Shown here: one piece after another, positions 27,120 to 60,967 of the stretch | Position numbering within the stretch: the stretch's first letter is position 1 | How the letters are laid out: every line of letters begins with the position of its first letter | Translations under genes and position numbers: made by a program | Notes under the pieces: model-generated | What the model was told of the DNA's origin: nothing | What the model saw: the letters and a program-made list of their open reading frames with translations, nothing else | Databases searched by the model: none | Source: Nitrospirota bacterium | GTDB taxonomy: Bacteria > Nitrospirota > UBA9217 | Direction: 5' to 3' | DNA: 64,000 bases | Assembly (NCBI GenBank): GCA_963796285.1 | Contig: CAWCKW010000001.1 | Span: forward strand, 193 to 64,192

Positions 27120-27645
27120 TCACTTCTCTAATAAAAACCGCTTCACCTCTTTTTCCCACACATCATATCCCTTGCTCGCCAGGTGGACGCCATCATCTGA
27201 AAGATAGCCTTTCTTCGGAGTTCCCTTCGCATCCACAAAGGATCCGAACACGTCAAGATATTCTGCGCCGTATTCGCCGGCGATCTTTTCGAGAAGGCGG
27301 TTGATATCTGGTATTACTTCATTGTCGACCCATGTCACTTTCCACCGGCAACAAGCTTTGGACCACGACAATCGATTGTTTGTACCACGTGGTCAGGTTG
27401 CGAACGATCTCGCGATAGGGGGGGAAGATATCATACTGCCCGGTCGCGATGTTGTTGATGCCGGTCATGAGGAAGATGAAGTCCGGATCGTCGATCTGCG
27501 TGCGAATGCGCTCCCTGCGGGCGAGCAGACCTTCGACGGTTTCGCCGGAGATGCCGAGGTTTGTCACCTGATACCCTGGGAACCGTTGCTCCCAGTCACC
27601 CCACTGGGTGAGCGAATCGCCTATGAAGACAAGATGGTTGCGCAT
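27120..27645 (-). CDS. SGNH/GDSL hydrolase family protein. Apparent frameshift at about 27343.
   Basis: Block I is LVFIGDSLTQWG, followed by GISGETV and GINN. The C-terminal DDGVHLASKGY (DxxH) is in the second ORF-track piece. Confidence 0.7.
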
Positions 27646-27664
27646 AGAAAGATTAATGGTCCAC

Positions 27665-27942
27665 CACGGAGGCACGGAGACACTGAGAAAATCAATAAAT
27701 TGTGCGACAAATTCTACGCAAAATGAGCAAGCAATTTTACCGCGAAGGCGCGACAGAGCGCAAAGGAAGTCCTTAAATTCCGGGTTGAGGGCTTTTACAA
27801 CCTTCGCGTCCTTGGCGCCTTGGCGGTTCAAAGGCTTTGTTTTAACTCTGGCTTGTCCGGGTTAAGCAAATAATGCTGAAATCCCATCGATCCTGTTATC
27901 CGTCAAGATATGATTGTGTTTTCTCCGCGACCTCTGTGACTC
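27665..27942. repeat. Nested cluster of octamer-type REP hairpins.
   Basis: cacggagg cacggaga cactgaga (27665-27688) faces gttttctccgcgacctctgtgactc (27918-27942). The inner pair is accgcgaaggcgcgacagagcgcaaagga (27739-) versus ccttcgcgtccttggcgccttggcggt (27801-27827). Confidence 0.5.
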
Positions 27943-27971: not shown

Positions 27972-28283
27972 TCACTCTGTGTTCATTGCCCGCCCGATCG
28001 CCTGCTTCAACATCAGAATCGACGGTACGCCTTTGAGTCTCCCGGACTCGTCCATGTACGTTCTTCAGGTTATGCCTGGCGAGTTGCCGCCTTCGAAGGC
28101 GTCTCTCCCGTTTATCCAGATGGAAGGAGAGCCCAGTATGTTGCGGCTGACTGCCTCGTCGTAACAGATCGTGCGGTAGGTAACGTCGGGTTTGATGTCC
28201 AGTTCCGCGAGCGCGCGGTTCAGGTTCGCGCGAAGTTCATGGTACGAGCCGCAGATCTCGGACAGGTAGATATCGATCTTCAT
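27972..28283 (-). CDS. Small thioredoxin-fold protein (Thioredoxin_3 / DUF2703-like). The 72-aa ORF 28065-28283 is solid. Extension through UGA 28065-28067 as Sec, giving 103 aa, is my proposal.
   Basis: MKIDIYLSEICGSY...LAELDIKPDV...GSPSIWINGRDAF. After the TGA the frame stays open for 30 codons (RTYMDESGRLKGVPSILMLKQAIGRAMNTE). These supply the G..VPS..el..l strand-helix that normally ends this fold. Confidence 0.5.
28035..28049 (-). promoter_or_regulatory. Candidate SECIS apical hairpin for the UGA at 28065-28067.
   Basis: On the minus strand, GAGUC-CGGGA-GACUC starts 15 nt after the UGA. The G-rich loop is about 20 nt downstream. A GUAC/GUAC lower stem is possible. Confidence 0.35.
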
Positions 28284-28367: not shown

Positions 28368-28682
28368 TTATTTCTTCTCCAGCACATCATTCGCCCAGGA
28401 CATCGCGGCGGAGACGGCGGGGAAGCCGATGGTGCTCGTGAGCAGGATGATCGCATGGCGGATCTCATCGGGTTTTGCCCCGGCTGCCAGCGCCCGGCGG
28501 GCATGGGAGTGGACAGACCCCTCGGACCGCACGGCGGCGGCGGCGGCGATCTGGACCAGTTCCGAGGTCTTCTTGTTCAGCGGTCCTGCTGCCTTGGCGG
28601 CCTTTCCCAGGTTCCCGACTGCCTTGATGAGACCTTTATATTTTTTCTGGATGGTGGTGTACTGTTTCGGCATTTTCGGCAT
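28368..28682 (-). CDS. Carboxymuconolactone decarboxylase (AhpD-like) family protein lacking the CxxC pair.
   Basis: ELVQIAAAAAVRSEGSVHSHARRALAAGAKPDEIRHAI fits the CMD core, but SEGS sits where CxxC is expected. Confidence 0.8.
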   Translation of the reverse strand: MPKMPKQYTTIQKKYKGLIKAVGNLGKAAKAAGPLNKKTSELVQIAAAAAVRSEGSVHSHARRALAAGAKPDEIRHAIILLTSTIGFPAVSAAMSWANDVLEKK

Positions 28683-29011: not shown

Positions 29012-29159
29012 GGTTTCAGACGGCCTCTTCGGTTTTCATAGAACTATTGACACTATCATTGAACAGTCCTATTTCAAGTTTAAGCAAAGAGTGCTCAAGA
29101 GTCAAGAAAATTGATGCCATGGTTTGACATCCGGAACAGGGGTATGATAGGCTTTGCAC

Positions 29160-30027
29160 ATGGAGAGGGCTGATTATTTGCGTCAGGTCGTGGCCAGACT
29201 CGCCAGGGAGATCGGGGTCCGTACCTTTCAGGACCTTGAGCGACTGGAGGAGACGGCAACATATATTTCAGATCAGTTCACCTCTTTCGGTTATCAGGTC
29301 GAGAGGCAACCCTTTGTCTTTGACGGGAACACCTACCATAACATCATCGCGGAGCTTAAGGGCGGCGCCTCTCAGGAAACGCTGCTCATCGTCGGCGCTC
29401 ACTACGACTCGGTACGCACCACGCCGGGCGCCGACGACAACGCGAGCGGCGTGGCGGGACTGCTCGGTCTGGCGCGGGAGCTGTCCAACGCGCGGATGGA
29501 GAGAACAATCCGGTTCGTAGCCTTCGCGCTTGAAGAATGGCCGGTGTATCGCAGCACGCAACATGGCGAGCTATCATTACGCGAAAAGTCTCGCAGAAAA
29601 GAACGCGCACGTAGAGGGGATGATCTGCCTCGAGATGATCGGGTTCTTCTGCGACCGGGAAGGTTGTCAGCATTATCCCTTTCCCTTCATGGGCCTCAAG
29701 TTCCCGAAGACGGGGCATTACATCGCCATGGTCGGCAACATGCGGTCGAAGGCTTTTACGGAGCGGATCGCCAGGAGTTTCAAAAAAGCAACCGATCTCC
29801 CCCTCATCACCTTGAACGCGCCTGCGATCATGATCGGCATCGATTTCTCCGACCACTGGTCCTTCGGCAAGTTCGGGTACCAGGCGCTCATGGTAACGGA
29901 CACGGCTTTCTACAGGAATCCGCATTACCACGCGCCTTCGGACCTTCCCGAAACCCTGGATTACGAACGCATGGCCAAAGTGGTCGAGGGGCTCATTGCG
30001 GCGCTACGGGAGCGGGACGGTGGTTGA
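29160..30027 (+). CDS. M28 family (aminopeptidase-like) zinc peptidase. Apparent frameshift at about 29562.
   Basis: LLIVGAHYDSV, GADDNASGVAGLLGLAREL, and in the second frame EMIGFF, DHWSF and PHYHAPSD. Confidence 0.8.
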
Positions 30028-30192
30028 TCTGCGAGGAGGGGTGTGCAACGGAGTACCGGGCCTTTTTTCATCCAGAACTATTCGAAGAGCACTTATCGTT
30101 TTAGTGTGGACAGACGCCGATTCTCGACGATCCTTAAACAGCGTGCGTTATTCTAAGACCGAAAGTACGCCTGCCATGTCATTTCACGAATC

Positions 30193-32349: not shown

Positions 32350-34965
32350 ATGGCCGCACGCTATCCGGACAAGATCGCCGTCCAGATGAAAGCAGGAGAC
32401 CGGTATCAGCAGTACACCTACCGGGACCTCATCAGGAGCGTAGCGTCCGTTACCCGATCGCTTTCCGAAACGGGATCAACAAGGGCGACCGCGTTGGCCT
32501 TTTTTCGGAGAACAGGCCGGAGTGGATGATCGCGTATCTCGCTGTCGTTTCTTTCGGCGCGGTCATCGTGCCGCTGGACGCGCAGCTGACCGCGAAAGAG
32601 GTCGCCGTCCTGCTTGCGAACTCCGGGGCAAAGGCGGTCTTTGTATCGGCTGACAGCAGGCAGAAACTTCCCCGAAGCGAGCCGCTCGTGATCATCTCGT
32701 TTGATCCCGGGGACGGCATACCGTTCTCCCGTATGGTCACGTCCTATCCCGATGCGCGCGCTCCCGCCCGCGCATGCAGCCAGATGACCTGGCAGCTCTC
32801 CTGTATACCTCAGGGACAACAGGCGATCCCAAAGGGGTGATGCTCTCGCACGGCAATCTGGCGTCGAACCTGGCGAGCGTCATCAAACTCAAAATCATCG
32901 AACACGAGGACAACCTCCTCTGCCTCCTTCCTCTTCACCATACCTATCCCGCAATGGCGTGCATGCTGCTGCCGCTCGCGCTCGGCGGGCAGGTGACGAT
33001 CCTGAACAGCTTGAAGGGGCCGGACATCCTAGCCTGCATGCAGGAGACCGGGGTCACCGCCATGGTCGGCGTGCCGCAACTCTTCACGGCGCTCCGCAAT
33101 GCCATCTTCGACGGGATCCGCAAAAAGCCCGGCCCTGTCCAGGCGCTGGTAAAGCTCTTGCTCGCTCTCAACAGACTGCTTCGAATTACAGCGGGATTCA
33201 ATGCCGGCAAGGTCGCTCTTTGGAACCGTGCACGCGAAATTCGGCCCGAAGTTCAGGCTGTTCGCGAGCGGAGGCGCCCGGCTCGATCCCGAGGTGTACC
33301 GCGATATGACCGATCTCGGGTTCACTGTCATTGAAGGGTACGGCCTTACCGAAACGTCCCCGGTTTCCACGTTCAACCCGCTCTCGAAGCAGAAGGCCGG
33401 ATCCATCGGCATCCCGGTCCCTGATGTCGAGGTCAGGATCGTCAATCCCGACGAGCACGGCATGGGAGAGATCGCGATACGCGGGCCGAACGTGATGCTC
33501 GGGTATTACAAGAAACCGCAGGAGACCGCGGAGGTCCTTCGTGACGGATGGTTCTACTACCGGGGACCTGGGCTATCGTGATAAGGACGGCTACTTCTTC
33601 ATCACCGGCAGGTCCAAGGAGATGATCGTGCTCGCGACGGGCAAGAAGATCTTTCCCGACGAGCTCGAGAAGTTCTATAAACAGATACCGGCGATCAAGG
33701 AGATCTGTCTCATCCAGGGCGAGCGCGGGATCGAGGCCGCGGTGGTCCCGGATTTCGATTACCTCAAAAAAATGAACCTCTCCAACTCACGAGAGACCAT
33801 TGCCTTCGAGATCGAAGACCTTGCAAAAGACCTGCCGCCGTACAAGCGGATCACGGGGCTGAAGATCTTCAAGGACCCCTTTCCGGCCACGCGCCTGGGC
33901 AAACTCAAGCGCAGCCAGGTGAGGGACATGTATCTGAAGAACGGCGAACGGACCGAGAAGCCGGTGACCGTGGTTGACAGCGACCTGCTCTCGACGCCGG
34001 TGGCAAAAAAGCTCTTGGCCTGCCTCGAACCCTTCTCCGCAAAAAAGAACATCGCTCCCGACGACAACCTGGAGCTTGACCTGGGACTTGATTCGCTCAC
34101 CCGGGTCGAGCTGGTCGTGAGCATCGAAAGGTCCTTCGACATCAGCCTGCCCGAGTCTTTCGGGAGCGAGCTCTTCACCGTAAAAGACGCGGTGCTCAAG
34201 TTGCAGGAGCTGCTGGCCTCCGGGCCGCTCAAGGCCGGTGAGGGCGTGCGGATGTCGTGGGCCAAGATCCTTGCGGAGGAACCTGCAGAAGAGGTAAGAG
34301 AATCGATCAGGCTTGAATTCGGTCCGGTGCTGGGCACGGTGCGGTCTCTGCTCAAGCTGCTGTTTACCCTGGTGCTGAGGGTATATGGCCGTCTGTCAGT
34401 CACGGGCATCGAGAACCTGCCGGTCAAGGGCCCGTATATCATCGCTCCGAATCATCTGAGCTTCGCGGACGCGCCATTCATCGGCGCTGCGATCTCCCAG
34501 GAGACTGCGGACCAGCTCTTTTCCCTCGGCACAACCGACGTTTTCAAAGGTCCGGTCATGTTGCCCCTGGCGCGGTTTTTACACGTGATCCCCGTGGACA
34601 TGGAGACCAAGCTGTACAACGCCCTTCAGTTGTCGGCGTACGTGCTCCGCCGGGGCAAGATCCTGCTCGCCTTTCCCGAAGGCAGCCGTTCGCGCGACGG
34701 CAGGACCAGGGAGTTCAAAAAAGGCGTGGGGATCATTGCCAGGGAACTGAACGTCCCTATTGTGCCGGTGGCGATCCGGGGGACGTATGAGATGCTGCCG
34801 ACGGGGCGTCTCTTCCCGAGGCCTTCAAAGGTCATGGTTTCATTCGGCAAACCGGTCCATCCCGGCGGCAGGGACTACGACGAGATCGTGAAAACACTAT
34901 ACGGGGACGTGGTGAAGATGCTGGAGGGGCAGAGGTCGGTAACAAGAAGTCAGAACCCGGACTAA
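32350..34965 (+). CDS. Tri-domain fusion of acyl-AMP/CoA ligase (AMP-binding), acyl carrier (PP-binding) and PlsC-type acyltransferase. It has 4 apparent frameshifts.
   Basis: LLYTSGTTGDPKGV and GYGLTETSP mark the AMP-binding domain. LGLDSLTRVELV marks the carrier Ser. APNHLSFADAPF (HX4D) and FPEGSRSRDG mark the PlsC blocks. Frame switches are near 32476, 32760-32780, 33218 and 33560. Confidence 0.8.
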
Positions 34966-41575: not shown

Positions 41576-42307
41576 TCATGCCTGCTCTTCCGCCTCCCAC
41601 TCCTTCAGTTTTCCCGAGATGAACTCGATGATCTGCTGATGCTCTTCGGTACCGCGGTCCTTGATCCAGAGGGGTTTGCCGAAGGCGAAGTGAACCTTCT
41701 TCGACGGGTCGATCTTGCCGTAGTCCTTGAGGAACGTGCCGTTGCCCCAGGCATTGGTCTTGAGCGCGATCGGGACCACCGGCACCCCGGCTTTTTTTGC
41801 GAGTTTTATCCCGATGGTGTTGAACTGTTCCGGGTCAAAAACCGGCGTCCGGGTGGTCTGGGGGAAGAGGATGATCGACATGCCCGCCTTCAGCCTCTCG
41901 GCGCCTCCCTCGAGCACTGCCTTCAGGTCCTCGCGGGGGTTCGTGCGGCCCACGGTAATGGGATTCCGCGAGCGCATGATGTGCTTGAAGATCGGGTAGT
42001 CGACAAGGCTCTGTTTGACGACAAAGGTCGCGTCTTTGAAGGGGGCTATGATCGTGGGGAGGATAAACGTTTCGAGCGTGCTCATATGATTTGCTATGAA
42101 CACGCAGGGGCCTTCGACGGCCTTGAAGGAGTCGGTGCCGGTGATCTCGAACTTCACCCCCGCGGCTTCCAGCGCGCGGAGCGTTGCGAAGCTGTTTTCA
42201 CACCATTCGGGCGTGCCGTACGGACCGCGCTTTGCCTGTGCGCTTCCCCGGACAACGATGGAGACGAGGCGGGTGTAAAAGGTGAACGAGGTCAGTGCCC
42301 GTGCCAT
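41576..42307 (-). CDS. Lysophospholipid (PlsC-family) acyltransferase.
   Basis: IANHMSTLETF (HX4-acidic block), FPQTTRT and VVPIALK. The start is uncertain; an upstream TTG near 42364 is possible. Confidence 0.8.
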   Translation of the reverse strand: MARALTSFTFYTRLVSIVVRGSAQAKRGPYGTPEWCENSFATLRALEAAGVKFEITGTDSFKAVEGPCVFIANHMSTLETFILPTIIAPFKDATFVVKQSLVDYPIFKHIMRSRNPITVGRTNPREDLKAVLEGGAERLKAGMSIILFPQTTRTPVFDPEQFNTIGIKLAKKAGVPVVPIALKTNAWGNGTFLKDYGKIDPSKKVHFAFGKPLWIKDRGTEEHQQIIEFISGKLKEWEAEEQA

Positions 42308-42520
42308 GAAGGAAATGCGGACGGGACCTGTCCGGTAGGAGCCATTCTCGTACCTGAGCTCTTCCAAACAACGACTCCTTGCAATCAGGGTGCAGGGATA
42401 CCTCGTGAAACGACGCCCAGTATACCATGCGAGGGGCAAAGAGTGAAGCGGGAAAAATACTCGTGTGAGGCAAAAACAAAATACTTGCAATACATCGGCG
42501 AAAAAGCGAAAATACGCACC

Positions 42521-44085
42521 ATGCAAACTCCTTCACTCAGGCGAGAAGTCGCTCAGATGGTCATGCCCCGGCTCGACGGCGCGAAACTCGGTGATCCCCG
42601 GTACCTCGAGCATATCTATGCGCTCATTCAGGAAGGAATCGGCGGTTTCATCCTCTTTGGGGGAACGGTCGAGCATACCCCGCGGCAGCTGCAGGAACTC
42701 CAGGCCCTTGCCGGGATCCCGCTGTTGATCACCTCCGACGTGGAGCGCGGCCTCGGTCAGCAGCTTGCCGGAGGGACGCGCTTCCCCAGCCAGCGCGCCG
42801 TTGCGTCGGCCGTTAACCGCCGCATCGAAAAAAGACGTCGAACTGCTTGACAAGATGCTCGATGCCGTGCGGATCGAGACGCGAGCAGCGGGCATTCATG
42901 CCGTCTTCTCTCCGGTCGTCGACGTGAACAACAATCCCGACAATCCCATCATCTGCACCCGGTCCTTCGGCGATGAACCCGAGATCGTCGAATGGTTCGG
43001 TTCGCGGTACATCTCACGGCTTCAGAAGTCACGCGGGACGCGGGACAGGCTGGATCTCCTGGCCTGCGCCAAACATTTTCCGGGGCATGGGGACACGGAC
43101 CAGGACTCGCATTCCGTTCTGCCTGTGATCCACGCCTCCCGGACTCGGCTGAACCGCGTCGAGCTCCCGCCGTTCCGCGAGGCGGTGAAGGACGGAGTAG
43201 GCATGGTCATGGCGGCGCACCTGCTCGTGCCGGCACTGGATCCGGAAAAACCTACGACGTTCTCGAAAAAGACGATTACCGCGCTTTTGCGGGAGGGCAT
43301 GGAATTCGACGGGCTGATCGTATCCGATGCCCTTGACATGGGCGCACTCGCACGCCACCTACACACCGGAAGACATCGCCGTCCGTGCCGTGAATGCCGG
43401 GATAGATATCTTGCTTCACCCGCGTGACGCGAACGTGACCATCGACGCGATCGTGTCCGCCGTGGAGCAGGGCAGGCTGACCAGCCAGCGGATCAGTGAA
43501 TCCGTCGGGCGGATCATGATTGCAAAAACGCGCCTGGGCCTGTTCGACACGTCCGCACGGAAGGCCGTCCGGATCGATTATCAGAAACATCGGCGCATTG
43601 CCCGGGATATCGGGAAAAAGGCGCTTCGGATTACTTTCGGAGAAAAAAAGTTGTCCCCCCTGCCTCATGACGGCGGAGTGGTATGCTTCATCCTTGATGA
43701 CGATAACAACAGGGAATCGGGAGATGTCTTCGTCCGCGCGATGAGAGAGCGATGCAAGCACCTCCTTGCCGTGGTCCTGACACCGGGCTCGGAAATACCG
43801 GAATCCCTGGTGCTTGACAGTGTCAGGGCCTCGGAGTTTGTGGTCATAGCGGTTTATTCCAGGATCTCCGCTTCGAAAGGGCATTCCGGGCTCGACGACA
43901 CCCTCCGGGACATTACCGTTAAAATATTAAAGACCGTCAAGTCGGAAAAGGGGAAATCGATCATGATCTCCTTCGACAGCCCTTATCTTCTCGACCGTTT
44001 CAAGGACGCCGATGTGCGCATCGCGGCCTATGACCGGATGGATGAGATCCAGCAGGCCGCCGCGGAGCTGCTGGCCGGGAAGTAG
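42521..44085 (+). CDS. nagZ: Glycoside hydrolase family 3 beta-N-acetylhexosaminidase. It has 2 apparent frameshifts.
   Basis: GGFILFG, ITSDVERG, KHFPGHGDTDQDSH and VSDALDMGA. Frame switches are in the A6 run 42828-42833 and near 43355. Confidence 0.8.
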
Positions 44086-60079: not shown

Positions 60080-60529
60080 ATGAAAAAATCCACACCGATA
60101 AAAGTGATGTTTCTCTGCACCGGCAATGCCTGCCGGAGCCAGATGGCAGAAGGTTTTGCCAGAGCATTGGGAAATGGATTGATCGATGCTTACAGCGCCG
60201 GTATCATAGCAGCAGGAGTTCACCCCCGCGCGATCGCGGTAATGAAAGAGCTCAACATTGATATATCGCGCCAGAAATCGACGGTGATCGATGAGAAACT
60301 GCTGAAGACCATGGACGTGGTCATCACCCTCTGCGGTAACGCCGAAGAAGCTTGTCCGAGGACGCCGCCGGAGATCAAAAGGATCCATTGGCCGATCAAC
60401 GATCCGGTCGGGACTTTGGGTTCAGAGGTGAGGATCATGAAGGAGTTTCGGCGGGCCAGAGATGAGATCAGAAATAGGGTGGATGATTTCATCAACAAGC
60501 TTCTGACGCATGAGGGCAAGGGGGCTTGA
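60080..60529 (+). CDS. arsC: Arsenate reductase, LMW-PTP (thioredoxin-coupled) type.
   Basis: VMFLCTGNACRSQMAEG (CX5R P-loop), and downstream LCGNAEEACP with the relay Cys residues. Confidence 0.85.
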   Translation: MKKSTPIKVMFLCTGNACRSQMAEGFARALGNGLIDAYSAGIIAAGVHPRAIAVMKELNIDISRQKSTVIDEKLLKTMDVVITLCGNAEEACPRTPPEIKRIHWPINDPVGTLGSEVRIMKEFRRARDEIRNRVDDFINKLLTHEGKGA

Positions 60530-60661: not shown

Positions 60662-60967
60662 ATGGTAAGTTTGACGGACAGTGCTATAGGCAAGTTCAAG
60701 GAAACGGTTGCTAAGCAGGGAACTGCTGGAGACGGCGTCAGGATATTCGTTGTCCCGGGCGGTTGAAGCCCCTCTTTGGCTATGGACATAGCCAAAGCAG
60801 CCCTGAAGGGAGATACGACCCTTGAGTTACAGGGATTGAAGCTGTTTCTCGAAGAGCGCGCCAGCGACATGCTGATGAGCACGATGATCGATTTTCAGGA
60901 AGGGCAGGGTTTTGTGCTTTCGGGCATGCAACCAAGCTCTTGCGGTTCTTCCTGCAGTAGTTGTTGA
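60662..60967 (+). CDS. HesB/IscA-like selenoprotein (Sec at codon 35, UGA 60764-60766).
   Basis: AAGGAGGA RBS (60646-60653) 8 nt before the ATG. MVSLTDSAIGKFKETVAKQGTAGDGVRIFVVPGG-U-SPSLAMDIAKAALKGDTTLELQGLKLFLEE...SCGSSCSSC. The listed ORF 60776-60967 is in the same frame as ATG 60662. A hairpin follows the UGA. Confidence 0.8.
60774..60797 (+). promoter_or_regulatory. SECIS-like hairpin.
   Basis: Perfect 10-bp stem CTTTGGCTAT / ATAGCCAAAG with loop GGAC. The stem starts 7 nt after the UGA and the loop starts 17 nt after it. Confidence 0.7.

What the first reader, a model, noticed from the sequence alone, without database searches (positions are those of the whole stretch)
27972..28283. Candidate new selenoprotein: a thioredoxin-fold (DUF2703-like) protein whose fold is completed only by reading through its UGA stop
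The 72-aa ORF ends ...SPSIWINGRDAFEGGNSPGIT-TGA.

Small Thioredoxin_3-type proteins normally continue after the xxING strand with a final strand and helix (G..VPS..E.....L). Here that segment (GRLKGVPSILMLKQAIGRAM) is encoded in frame immediately after the TGA, which is followed by 30 open codons.

As I remember DUF2703 proteins, they have a conserved CRT(V/I) about 20 residues before that segment. Here the UGA is followed by RTY, so U would replace that Cys.

The N-terminal CxxC is degenerate (CGSY), leaving one Cys to pair with a Sec.

A hairpin GAGUC-CGGGA-GACUC with a G-rich loop lies about 20 nt downstream of the UGA (28035-28049).

The same genome decodes Sec (see 60662). The neighbouring gene is an AhpD-like protein that has itself lost its CxxC.
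Basis: partly seen in the sequence, partly recalled or inferred. Interest (0 to 1): 0.7.

Follow-up and report, generated by a model that had tools for sequence, protein, structure and literature searches.

The report
Unannotated selenoprotein of the DF family
The "stop" codon of this small thioredoxin-like gene almost certainly encodes selenocysteine, so the real protein has 103 residues rather than 72; the family was flagged as a selenoprotein family in 2025, but with the selenocysteine at a different position.

Summary

- **Conserved UGA.** In 16 genome loci and 73 readable metagenome loci, mostly Nitrospirota, the codon at this column is always TGA. It is never TAA, TAG or Cys. The true stop 24-47 codons later varies between TGA, TAA and TAG.
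- **The extension is translated.** pN/pS is 0.31 in frame, against 0.91 and 1.62 in the other two frames. The upstream part of the gene gives 0.27.
- **SECIS-like hairpin.** A 15-nt hairpin starts 15 nt after the UGA. It is 99.7% paired across 65 distinct sequences, has two compensatory changes and an invariant GGG loop, and its synonymous sites are frozen.
- **Cys homologues.** Full-length Cys homologues carry Cys at the UGA column (GCR[IV]Y). They are fused to MerB or sit in merR-merT/P operons.
- **Family.** The read-through product matches NCBIfam NF049942, "DF family (seleno)protein", end to end, but scores below its cut-off.
- **What differs.** The one published DF selenoprotein has Sec at the other conserved Cys, which is Cys11 here. 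Its published sequence stops one residue before this UGA column.

I call it a new variant of a known kind. Its biochemical function is still inferred.

The parts
27972..28283 (-). Full selenoprotein coding sequence: 103 codons (M1...U73...E103) plus the true stop TGA at 27974-27972.
   Evidence: Translation. Conserved in-frame UGA and extension in about 89 loci. pN/pS 0.27 upstream of the UGA and 0.31 downstream. End-to-end match to NF049942.
28242..28253 (-). Codons 11-14, CGSY. This is a degenerate CxxC: the first (nucleophilic) Cys is kept and the second Cys position is Tyr.
   Evidence: C11 is invariant in alignments A1, A3 and A4. The family's CPSY aligns to CPHC of MJ0307 thioredoxin 1fo5. 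The published D. flagellatus DF protein has Sec at this column.
28122..28133 (-). Codons 51-54, GSPS. This is the cis-Pro loop of the thioredoxin fold, just before strand beta3 (SIWING).
   Evidence: G51, S52 and P53 are invariant. In both AlphaFold models, the Ser before the Pro and the Cys/Sec-column residue are the only two isolated beta-bridge residues.
28065..28067 (-). Codon 73, UGA, read as selenocysteine.
   Evidence: TGA in 16 of 16 genome loci and 73 of 73 readable metagenome loci. It aligns with the Cys of GCR[IV]Y in full-length homologues. TGA is an ordinary stop in 8 of 25 other genes of the window.
28035..28049 (-). SECIS-like hairpin GAGUC-CGGGA-GACUC: 5-bp stem and 5-nt loop with an invariant GGG, starting 15 nt after the UGA.
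   Evidence: 99.7% of cells paired in 65 distinct sequences, with two compensatory changes and 15 wobble changes. Slid controls pair in 4-55% of cells. Synonymous diversity pS is 0.20 here against 0.62-0.76 elsewhere. The hairpin is absent from Cys-form genes.
27975..28064 (-). Post-UGA extension, codons 74-103 (RTYMDESGRLKGVPSILMLKQAIGRAMNTE). It supplies the last strands and the C-terminal helix of the fold.
   Evidence: Conserved as protein with free synonymous variation outside the hairpin. It corresponds to strands 75-76 and 82-83 and helix 88-100 in the model of the full-length homologue P0154. It matches positions 74-96 of NF049942.
28368..28682 (-). Upstream neighbour: a CMD/AhpD-like protein whose CxxCxxxH motif is SEGSVHSH. 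It is a conserved syntenic partner, and a functional link is not shown.
   Evidence: PF02627, E 9e-17. Present upstream on the same strand in 75 of about 90 loci. The motif SEGSVHSH is found in 70 of 71.

Best explanation
This is a real selenoprotein gene. Codon 73 (UGA, 28067-28065) is decoded as selenocysteine by the standard bacterial SelB route. A small hairpin that starts 15 nt downstream directs the decoding. The product is a 103-residue thioredoxin-fold protein.

The protein is a divergent member of the DF family (NCBIfam NF049942). That family has two invariant Cys columns. One lies at the start of helix 1 and is the first Cys of a degenerate CxxC (CPSY or CGSY). The other lies in a beta-hairpin inserted before the last helix (GCR[IV]Y). 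Here the first column is Cys11 and the second is Sec73.

Inferred, not shown: the two residues sit next to each other at the thioredoxin active site, beside the cis-Pro loop, and work as a Cys-Sec pair. The pair would either cycle through a selenylsulfide or clamp a thiophilic metal such as Hg(II).

- For the Nitrospirota clade I lean slightly to a redox role, about 0.5. The gene is a core gene, it has a ferredoxin gene directly upstream in more than half of the loci, and no mer genes are nearby.
- I give soft-metal handling about 0.35. That is what the Cys forms appear to do.
For: **Shown**
- TGA at this column in all 16 + 73 readable loci, with none TAA, TAG or Cys. The second stop varies between TGA, TAA and TAG.
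- pN/pS for codons 84-96 is 0.31 in frame, against 0.91 and 1.62 out of frame. Upstream of the UGA it is 0.27.
- The hairpin is 99.7% paired, has 2 compensatory changes and an invariant GGG loop, and its synonymous sites are frozen: TCC in 39 of 41, GGG in 41 of 41, CTC in 39 of 40.
- The hairpin, and the ESGRL motif it imposes, occur only in UGA-bearing members and a recent CGA derivative. They do not occur in Cys forms.
- Cys sits at the column in full-length homologues.
- NF049942 matches end to end, E 6e-13.
- TGA is a normal stop elsewhere in the window.
- The window holds a second selenoprotein gene.
- AlphaFold models of two full-length homologues are confident thioredoxin folds, with pLDDT 87.5 and 82.1. 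The extension supplies the last strands and helix.

**Inferred**
- Proximity of the pair. In both models the only isolated beta-bridge residues are the Ser before the cis-Pro and the Cys/Sec-column residue.
- Metal link. DF domains are fused N-terminally to MerB and sit in merR-merT/HMA-DF operons.
- Redox link. A ferredoxin gene lies directly upstream in 51 of about 91 loci.
Against: - No selA, selB, selC or selD gene and no tRNA was found in the window, so Sec machinery is only inferred.
- The hairpin has only 5 bp. Its energy is not better than shuffles (z = +0.6). bSECISearch was not run.
- The NF049942 score of 48.6 bits is below the curated cut-off of 70.
The modelled proteins are homologues at 26-38% identity, not the window's own protein.
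- One related clade carries Arg or Leu at the Sec column and still keeps an intact gene. That is unexpected if the residue is indispensable.
- There is no proteomic or 75Se evidence.
Confidence: 0.88

Rival explanations
1. The UGA is a genuine stop. The gene makes a 72-residue truncated thioredoxin-like protein. The downstream conservation reflects something else, such as a regulatory RNA, a terminator or a separate small ORF.
For: All 120 listed hits of the 186 public predicted proteins of this clade are called as roughly 72-74 aa, or up to 93 aa with N-terminal extensions. The hairpin alone is thermodynamically ordinary. 31% of stops are followed by 30 open codons by chance.
Against: - The downstream codons evolve as protein in this frame only, with pN/pS 0.31 against 0.91 and 1.62.
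- Amino acids are conserved while synonymous sites vary, for example V86, P87, S88, L92, K93 and A95.
- The stop is never TAA or TAG in about 89 loci, while the real stop varies.
- Cys homologues run through the column and need this segment to finish the fold.
- There is no start codon or ribosome-binding site for a separate ORF.
Confidence: 0.03
2. The UGA is read through, but not as Sec. Possible routes are near-cognate Trp, Cys or Arg insertion, or a lineage-wide UGA reassignment.
For: A related clade has CGA (Arg) or a Leu codon at the column with the hairpin still present. So a non-Cys, non-Sec residue can be tolerated there.
Against: - TGA ends 8 of 25 Pfam-supported genes in the window, and it ends this same gene in many relatives. 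Reassignment is therefore excluded.
- The column is Cys in every full-length homologue outside the Arg/Leu clade, which is the classic Sec/Cys pattern.
- A conserved hairpin with a G-rich loop at SECIS distance is what SelB needs.
- The window encodes another protein with a Sec/Cys-type in-frame UGA.
Confidence: 0.05
3. Sec decoding is accepted, but the function is different. The Cys11-Sec73 pair is a high-affinity Hg(II) or soft-metal(loid) binding site for hand-off or sequestration, like the Cys forms of the family, and is not a redox couple.
For: - DF domains are N-terminal fusions to organomercurial lyase MerB under MerR control on Streptomyces and Mycobacterium plasmids.
- Stand-alone Cys forms follow merR and merT/HMA, or an ArsR/SmtB regulator beside a copper ATPase.
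- Sec is already predicted in mercury-related proteins such as MerT-like, SaoL, HgcA and HgcB (PMC13188914).
Against: - In Nitrospirota the gene lies in a housekeeping region (uvrB, secA) with no mer, ars or metal-regulator gene adjacent.
- Its conserved neighbours are a CMD protein, a ferredoxin and a GDSL hydrolase.
- Identity to the mer-linked forms is only about 28-34%.
Confidence: 0.35

Closest known systems
'Hypothetical protein DF' of Desulfosediminicola flagellatus IMCC35005 (deep-Sep paper, PMC12013277; NCBIfam NF049942 'DF family (seleno)protein')
   Same: Same protein family: the window's product matches NF049942 end to end. Both are small thioredoxin-like proteins with GSP/GGP-x-I-x-(I/V)-NG and the same two conserved Cys columns. 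Both are selenoproteins with Cys homologues.
   Different: - The published Sec is at the N-terminal column (LVN-U-NAA), which is Cys11 here. Here the Sec is at the second column, 62 residues later.
- The paper reported no other TGA-containing homologues. Here there are about 90.
- The published sequence ends at ...FGIS, one residue before this Sec column, and covers only positions 1-73 of the 96 in NF049942. It is therefore probably cut at a second UGA.
- The window's protein scores 48.6 bits, below the family cut-off of 70.
Cys-form DF domains of mercury-resistance loci: the N-terminal domain of actinobacterial MerB, and merR-merT/merP-DF operons
   Same: They share the fold, both conserved columns (DCP[SN]... 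and [GS]CR[LIV]Y), and the C-terminal segment G-x-PS-x-x-x-L.
   Different: They have Cys instead of Sec, and no hairpin after the codon. They sit in mercury or metal contexts, often on plasmids or next to transposases. The window's gene is chromosomal, in a housekeeping region, and has different neighbours.
MTH895 / MJ0307-type small thioredoxins (Pfam Thioredoxin_3 PF13192; TIGR00411, TIGR00412; PDB 1ilo, 1fo5)
   Same: These are the nearest solved folds. The family profile hits 1fo5 at E 1.5e-5. Foldseek gives TM 0.65 to 1ilo. The beta1-alpha1-beta2-alpha2-beta3 core and the cis-Pro loop are the same.
   Different: They have a canonical CxxC and no insertion. Here the second Cys of the motif is Tyr, and the partner residue comes from an insertion of about 20 residues between beta3 and the last strand. 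Pfam scores are below the gathering threshold, 20.5-21.5 against 24.8.
Thioredoxin-fold selenoproteins with Sec inside the CxxC-derived motif (Sec-Trx, Sec-Grx, SelW-like, SaoT, 'Thioredoxin-like selenoprotein Sec.1/Sec.2')
   Same: They have a thioredoxin-like fold, a Sec/Cys pair, and bacterial SECIS-directed UGA decoding (PMC13188914).
   Different: In all of those, the Sec lies in the UxxC, CxxU, CxU or UxC motif at the start of helix 1. Here that motif keeps Cys, and the Sec lies far away in the sequence, in a C-terminal insertion.

Membership tests
Bacterial selenoprotein gene (SelB/SECIS-dependent UGA decoding) | In-frame UGA conserved among orthologues, never replaced by TAA or TAG | tested here: met
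   TGA in 16 of 16 genome loci and 73 of 73 readable metagenome loci.
Bacterial selenoprotein gene (SelB/SECIS-dependent UGA decoding) | Protein-level conservation continues in frame after the UGA | tested here: met
   pN/pS 0.31 for codons 84-96 in frame, against 0.91 and 1.62 in the other frames. Upstream of the UGA it is 0.27.
Bacterial selenoprotein gene (SelB/SECIS-dependent UGA decoding) | Homologues with Cys aligned to the UGA | tested here: met
   GCR[IV]Y or SCRLY in P0166, P0170, P0190, P0192, P0196, 28 further Cys forms, and the MerB fusions.
Bacterial selenoprotein gene (SelB/SECIS-dependent UGA decoding) | Stem-loop shortly downstream of the UGA with G in the apical loop (bacterial SECIS) | tested here: met
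   The hairpin starts 15 nt after the UGA and its GGG loop is invariant. It is 99.7% paired with 2 compensatory changes, and its synonymous sites are frozen. Caveats: the stem is only 5 bp, the energy is not exceptional, and bSECISearch was not available.
Bacterial selenoprotein gene (SelB/SECIS-dependent UGA decoding) | selA, selB, selC (tRNA-Sec) and selD present in the genome | not testable with these tools
   None was found in the 64-kb window: no tRNA and no such domains among the ORFs scanned. The rest of the genome was not available. Indirect support comes from a second in-frame-UGA gene, HesB-like with a 10-bp hairpin, at 60662-60967.
Bacterial selenoprotein gene (SelB/SECIS-dependent UGA decoding) | Selenium shown in the protein (75Se labelling or mass spectrometry) | not testable with these tools
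   This needs an experiment.
DF family (seleno)protein, NCBIfam NF049942 | Score at or above the curated cut-off (70 bits) | tested here: not met
   48.6 bits, E 6e-13, but end to end (residues 3-95 on model positions 1-96). MerB-fused domains score similarly, at 53.4 and 49.5 bits. Typical Cys forms score 87-100 bits.
DF family (seleno)protein, NCBIfam NF049942 | Both conserved Cys/Sec columns present (start of helix 1, and GCRxY) | tested here: met
   C11 is invariant. U73 aligns to the second Cys.
DF family (seleno)protein, NCBIfam NF049942 | Sec at the position published for the family's founding selenoprotein | tested here: not met
   The published Sec is at the Cys11 column (supplement of PMC12013277; alignment). 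Here Sec is at the second column.
Thioredoxin_3 (Pfam PF13192) | Score at or above the gathering threshold (24.8 bits), and a CxxC active site | tested here: not met
   20.5-21.5 bits, covering residues 1-65 only. The motif is CGSY. Some orthologues carry a precomputed PF13192 hit, so the match is borderline.
DUF2703 (Pfam PF10865) | Score at or above the gathering threshold (23.6 bits) over the whole domain, including a C-terminal 'CRT' motif | tested here: not met
   18 bits, with residues 17-61 on profile positions 28-71 of 120. C-terminal halves of three family members hit nothing in Pfam even at E 10.
Thioredoxin fold | A beta-alpha-beta-alpha-beta-beta-alpha core with a cis-Pro loop, completed by the post-UGA segment | tested here: met
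   AlphaFold models of the full-length homologues P0154 (pLDDT 87.5, pTM 0.79) and P0192 (82.1, 0.72). Foldseek hits are thioredoxins only, with TM about 0.5-0.65. This was tested on homologues, because the tool would not accept the window's read-through sequence.

The most novel reading that the evidence does not exclude
The DF family works through a two-residue chalcogen pair brought together from opposite ends of the sequence, and different lineages have upgraded either partner, or both, to selenocysteine.

- Nitrospirota and a second clade (CGSE...GFS-U) put Sec at the C-terminal column.
- D. flagellatus puts Sec at the N-terminal column. Its published sequence stops exactly before the second column, so it probably has Sec there too. 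That would make it a diselenide or bis-selenolate protein that has been mis-described as a truncated one-Sec protein.

In Nitrospirota the Cys-Sec protein would be a core-genome, ferredoxin-linked redox or soft-metal-handling factor, descended from the same domain that serves MerB and MerT in mercury resistance.
Probability: 0.3. Interest if true: 0.62.

Novelty: new variant of a known kind. Interest (0 to 1): 0.5.

Why it matters
- **Annotation.** All 120 listed hits of the 186 public protein predictions for this clade stop at the UGA. They lack about 30% of the protein, including the likely catalytic residue. Annotation pipelines miss the clade because it scores below the NCBIfam cut-off.
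- **Reach of the family.** The DF family goes from a single published Sec-containing genome to a whole clade of soil, sediment and wetland Nitrospirota, plus at least one more lineage.
- **Position of the Sec.** It sits outside the CxxC-derived motif of a thioredoxin fold, at the partner residue. This is unusual. It also identifies the family's functional pair, which the original description could not do: that paper reported no motif and no conserved domain.
- **The published founder.** It suggests that the founding member is itself truncated at a second UGA.
- **A testable function.** The tie between the Cys forms and MerB or MerT gives a concrete hypothesis, thiophilic-metal handling against selenylsulfide redox, for a protein family with no known function.

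Tried and rejected
- **Rfam and tRNA scans.** Scans of the whole window found nothing, so they gave no direct Sec-machinery evidence.
- **Handing in the read-through protein.** I used the 72-aa family profile and full-length homologues instead.
- **A longer SECIS.** The window's own fold shows a lower stem, ACGUAC/GUACCGU. The consensus fold of the 65-sequence alignment A2 keeps only the 5-bp stem. I did not count pairs for the lower stem, so I do not claim it.
- **DUF2703 link.** Only sub-threshold N-terminal Pfam hits were found, and the C-terminal halves hit nothing. I dropped it as the family assignment.
- **Genetic-code reassignment.** Rejected from stop-codon usage.
- **Sequencing error or frameshift.** This was worth checking, because the window has several frameshift-split genes. 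It is rejected because the TGA is present in about 90 independent assemblies.
- **Tight CMD-DF operon.** The spacing varies from 11 to 770 bp, and a ferredoxin gene is often inserted between them. A functional coupling to CMD is not supported beyond synteny.
- **Measuring the Cys-Sec distance.** Model coordinates are not exposed, so only the secondary-structure strings could be used.
- **Paper tools.** Several paper searches and one paper look-up timed out before one succeeded.
Full report
**1. What is in the sequence**

On the minus strand an ORF runs from ATG 28283 to TGA 28067-28065. It encodes 72 aa: MKIDIYLSEICGSYHELRANLNRALAELDIKPDVTYRTICYDEAVSRNILGSPSIWINGRDAFEGGNSPGIT. The same frame stays open for 30 more codons (RTYMDESGRLKGVPSILMLKQAIGRAMNTE) to a second TGA at 27974-27972.
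- the CGSY motif;
- the hairpin GAGUC-CGGGA-GACUC at 28049-28035;
- the upstream CMD/AhpD-like gene with SEGSVHSH in place of CxxCxxxH;
- a second gene with an in-frame TGA near 60.7 kb.

Taken alone, these features are weak. 31% of all stops in the window are followed by at least 30 open codons. The hairpin folds no better than shuffled sequence (z = +0.6). Pfam gives only sub-threshold hits to Thioredoxin_3 (20.5 bits) and DUF2703 (18 bits), and both are confined to the first 65 residues.

**2. Comparative evidence that the UGA is decoded**

A protein search with the 103-aa read-through product returned 186 relatives. All of the best 120 were 66-93 aa long and covered at most 70% of the query. 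Every public gene call therefore ends at this column.

I fetched the DNA for 16 loci from genome assemblies. Nearly all are Nitrospirota MAGs; the closest, L001, is 96% identical. I also fetched 75 loci from metagenomes.
- All 16 genome loci, and all 73 metagenome loci whose translation reaches a stop, have TGA as the first in-frame stop. In the five frameshifted or partial loci (L086, L087, L090-L092) that stop is shifted or premature. None has TAA, TAG or a Cys codon at this column.
- The frame then stays open for 24-47 codons.
- It reads U-R-[TMVA]-[YF]-x-D-E-S-G-R-L-x-x-[VAT]-P-S-x-x-M-L-K-x-A-I.
- The terminal stop varies between TGA, TAA and TAG.

Over 70 distinct sequences the pN/pS values are as follows:

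| Region | pN/pS |
|---|---|
| Codons 2-72 (upstream of the UGA) | 0.27 |
| Codons 84-96, in frame | 0.31 |
| The same bases, frame +1 | 0.91 |
| The same bases, frame +2 | 1.62 |

Residues such as V86, P87, S88, L92, K93 and A95 are conserved while their third codon positions vary freely. So the extension is translated, and in this frame.

TGA is an ordinary stop for 8 of 25 Pfam-supported genes in the window. A reassigned genetic code is therefore excluded.

**3. The RNA element**

Codons 79-83 (E-S-G-R-L) behave differently from the rest of the gene.
- Synonymous diversity drops to pS 0.20, from 0.62-0.76 elsewhere.
- Codon choice is frozen: GAG in 37 of 38, TCC in 39 of 41, GGG in 41 of 41 and CTC in 39 of 40.

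These 15 nt form the hairpin. In 65 distinct sequences 99.7% of cells pair. There are 15 wobble changes and two compensatory changes: G-C to A-U in L080, and U-A to C-G in L078. When the 3' partners are slid by 1-3 columns, only 4-55% of cells pair.

The loop's GGG is invariant, and the stem begins 15 nt after the UGA. That position and loop content are what a bacterial SECIS needs. This last point rests on established knowledge of SelB-SECIS recognition, not on a test done here.

The element is small, with a 5-bp stem. The consensus fold of the alignment retains no longer stem.

The hairpin and the ESGRL motif also occur in a more distant UGA-bearing lineage: L094 has ...GFS-TGA-RMFSDESGRLTNAPS with GAGTC-TGGCA-GACTC. 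They are absent from nine Cys-form genes examined. This is expected if the RNA, and not the protein, imposes the motif.

**4. Which family, and the Cys homologues**

I searched a profile of the 72-aa proteins against 1.8 billion cluster representatives. Only 77 hits came back. Among them are full-length proteins of 98-125 aa with ...GSPTIRING-D...G-C-R-[IVL]-Y...G-x-PS-x-E.... In alignments the Cys of GCRxY falls on the UGA column. The family's DCPSY falls on CGSY, with that Cys invariant.

NCBIfam gives the name. NF049942, 'DF family (seleno)protein', matches the window's product end to end (residues 3-95 on model positions 1-96, E 6e-13). The score of 48.6 bits is below the curated cut-off of 70. 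Typical Cys forms score 87-100 bits.

The family profile hits the MJ0307 thioredoxin (PDB 1fo5, E 1.5e-5). There CPSY aligns to CPHC, so the first Cys is kept and the second is Tyr.

AlphaFold models of two full-length homologues are confident thioredoxin folds. They are P0154 (38% identical to the window's product; pLDDT 87.5, pTM 0.79) and P0192 (pLDDT 82.1). Foldseek returns only thioredoxins, weakly, with TM about 0.5-0.65. The post-UGA segment supplies the last two short strands and the C-terminal helix. A 72-aa product would therefore be an incomplete domain.

**5. What is already known**

'Hypothetical protein DF' was reported in 2025 by the deep-Sep paper (PMC12013277). It was described as a new selenoprotein found in one genome, Desulfosediminicola flagellatus IMCC35005. 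The paper recorded Cys homologues, no other TGA-containing homologues and no conserved domain. A 2026 review lists it under NF049942 with one Sec and no motif (PMC13188914).

The supplementary sequence is ...MHIRIISLVN-U-NAATEIKEL...GGPTIQVNGLDIEPNARTIEQFGIS. Aligned to the family, its Sec sits at the N-terminal column, which is Cys11 here. The sequence also ends exactly one residue before the window's Sec column. It covers only positions 1-73 of the 96 in NF049942. I infer that the published protein is cut at a second UGA, but I could not obtain its DNA.

So the family and its use of Sec are known. The following are not described in the literature I could read:
- the Sec position found here;
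- the size of the UGA-bearing clade, about 90 loci where the paper found none;
- the thioredoxin-fold assignment.

In the review's table, every thioredoxin-like selenoprotein with a listed motif has its Sec in a UxxC, CxxU, CxU or UxC motif.

**6. How it probably works**

Shown: Sec73 replaces one of two invariant Cys of the family, and the other, Cys11, is at the canonical nucleophile position of the thioredoxin fold.

Inferred: the two residues are neighbours. In both models the only two isolated beta-bridge residues are the Ser before the cis-Pro (GSP) and the Cys/Sec-column residue. In thioredoxin folds the residue before the cis-Pro faces the active-site Cys. That statement is established structural knowledge. 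The distance itself was not measured, because coordinates are not exposed.

A Cys-Sec pair can do two things.

(a) It can cycle through a selenylsulfide as an oxidoreductase. The evidence for this in Nitrospirota is as follows.
- The gene is a core gene in a housekeeping region (uvrB, secA).
- Its syntenic neighbours are CMD upstream (75 of about 90 loci) and a GDSL hydrolase downstream (78 of about 90).
- In 51 of about 91 loci a 76-aa ferredoxin gene (CISCESC...CP) lies directly upstream on the same strand. The window and its closest relatives lack it.

(b) It can bind a thiophilic metal. The evidence comes from the Cys forms.
- The DF domain is the N-terminal domain of MerB under MerR control on Streptomyces and Mycobacterium plasmids. 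Both Cys are present, and NF049942 matches end to end.
- Stand-alone forms follow merR and a merT-HMA fusion in three of five contexts examined.
- One stand-alone form follows an ArsR/SmtB regulator beside a copper ATPase.

I put about 0.5 on (a) and about 0.35 on (b) for the window's protein.

**7. Open points**

- No sel gene or tRNA-Sec lies in the window. Sec competence rests on the HesB/IscA-like gene at 60662-60967. That gene has TGA at 60764-60766 (VVPGG-U-SPS), a 10-bp hairpin 8 nt downstream, and an end-to-end though sub-threshold match to NF038090 IscA_HesB_Se.
- One related clade has CGA (Arg), or in one member Leu, at the Sec column. It comprises five distinct 105-aa proteins from several sources. 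The hairpin is still recognisable and the ORF is intact. I have no explanation for this.

**8. Verdict**

The gene is a genuine, unannotated selenoprotein whose fold is completed by reading through UGA. It is not a new family. It is a divergent DF-family member with Sec at the family's second conserved Cys. I rate it a new variant of a known kind, of moderate interest.

Noticed in passing
window 60662-60967 (+), TGA at 60764-60766: A second selenoprotein gene, HesB/IscA-like: MVSLTDSAIGKF...VVPGG-U-SPSLAMD...CGSSCSSC. A perfect 10-bp hairpin (CUUUGGCUAU-GGAC-AUAGCCAAAG) starts 8 nt after the UGA. It matches NF038090 IscA_HesB_Se end to end but below cut-off (37 bits against 85). It lies between an arsC gene (60080-60529) and sufC/sufBD.
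   Followed up: partly
L093:199-516 (protein P0154 and cluster members P0198-P0201): A related clade has CGA (Arg) at the Sec column, and one member has Leu: ...GFS-R-RRFQDESGRL.... The SECIS-like hairpin is still present (GAGTC-CGGCA-GGCTC) and the 105-aa ORF is intact. There are five distinct sequences from NCBI, ENA and Logan. A Sec-to-Arg replacement rather than Sec-to-Cys is unusual, and I cannot explain it.
   Followed up: partly
Supplementary file 4 of PMC12013277 (D. flagellatus 'hypothetical protein DF'); alignment A4: The published founding DF selenoprotein ends at ...EQFGIS, exactly one residue before the window's Sec column. It covers only positions 1-73 of the 96 in NF049942. It is probably truncated at a second, unrecognised UGA, which would make it a two-Sec protein. 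Its DNA could not be fetched.
   Followed up: partly
L007:2727-2957, L004:2543-2842 and 49 further loci: A 76-aa ferredoxin gene (MAKTKVTIVREECISCESCWAVCPEFF...SCPVQIIHVG) lies directly upstream of the DF selenoprotein gene, on the same strand, in 51 of about 91 loci. It has no match anywhere in the window and is absent from this position in the window's closest relatives.
   Followed up: partly
window 28368-28682 (-): The CMD/AhpD-like neighbour has both Cys of CxxCxxxH replaced by Ser (SEGSVHSH). That motif is identical in 70 of 71 orthologues. The protein is more conserved (71-99% identity) than the selenoprotein (59-96%). Its function without the redox Cys pair is unclear.
   Followed up: partly
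window 27120-27831 (-), 29154-30104 (+), 32774-34965 (+), 41639-44085 (+): Several genes are split into overlapping or adjacent ORFs as if by frameshifts: GDSL lipase, M28 peptidase, an AMP-binding enzyme and glycoside hydrolase 3. This suggests indel errors in the assembly, or pseudogenes.
   Followed up: no
P0177 (55 aa), P0179 (57 aa): These short family members begin near column 15-17 and end just before the Sec column (...SGFF...SGSS). That is what a gene caller would produce for a gene with UGA at both conserved columns. Their DNA could not be looked up.
   Followed up: no
L025:254-700; L004 (record title): In L025 the selenoprotein frame runs straight from ...VPSVSM into the GDSL hydrolase (HKHLIFIGDSLTQW...). 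This is either a deletion that fuses the two genes or an assembly artefact in a 1.6-kb contig. L004 is labelled 'Betaproteobacteria bacterium MAG281' but carries the same Nitrospirota-type CMD-ferredoxin-DF-GDSL arrangement, so the contig may be mis-binned.
   Followed up: no
L004:3486-4142, also L012, L013, L053, L072, L075, L078: In 7 loci a 218-aa predicted membrane protein is inserted between the selenoprotein gene and the GDSL hydrolase gene.
   Followed up: no
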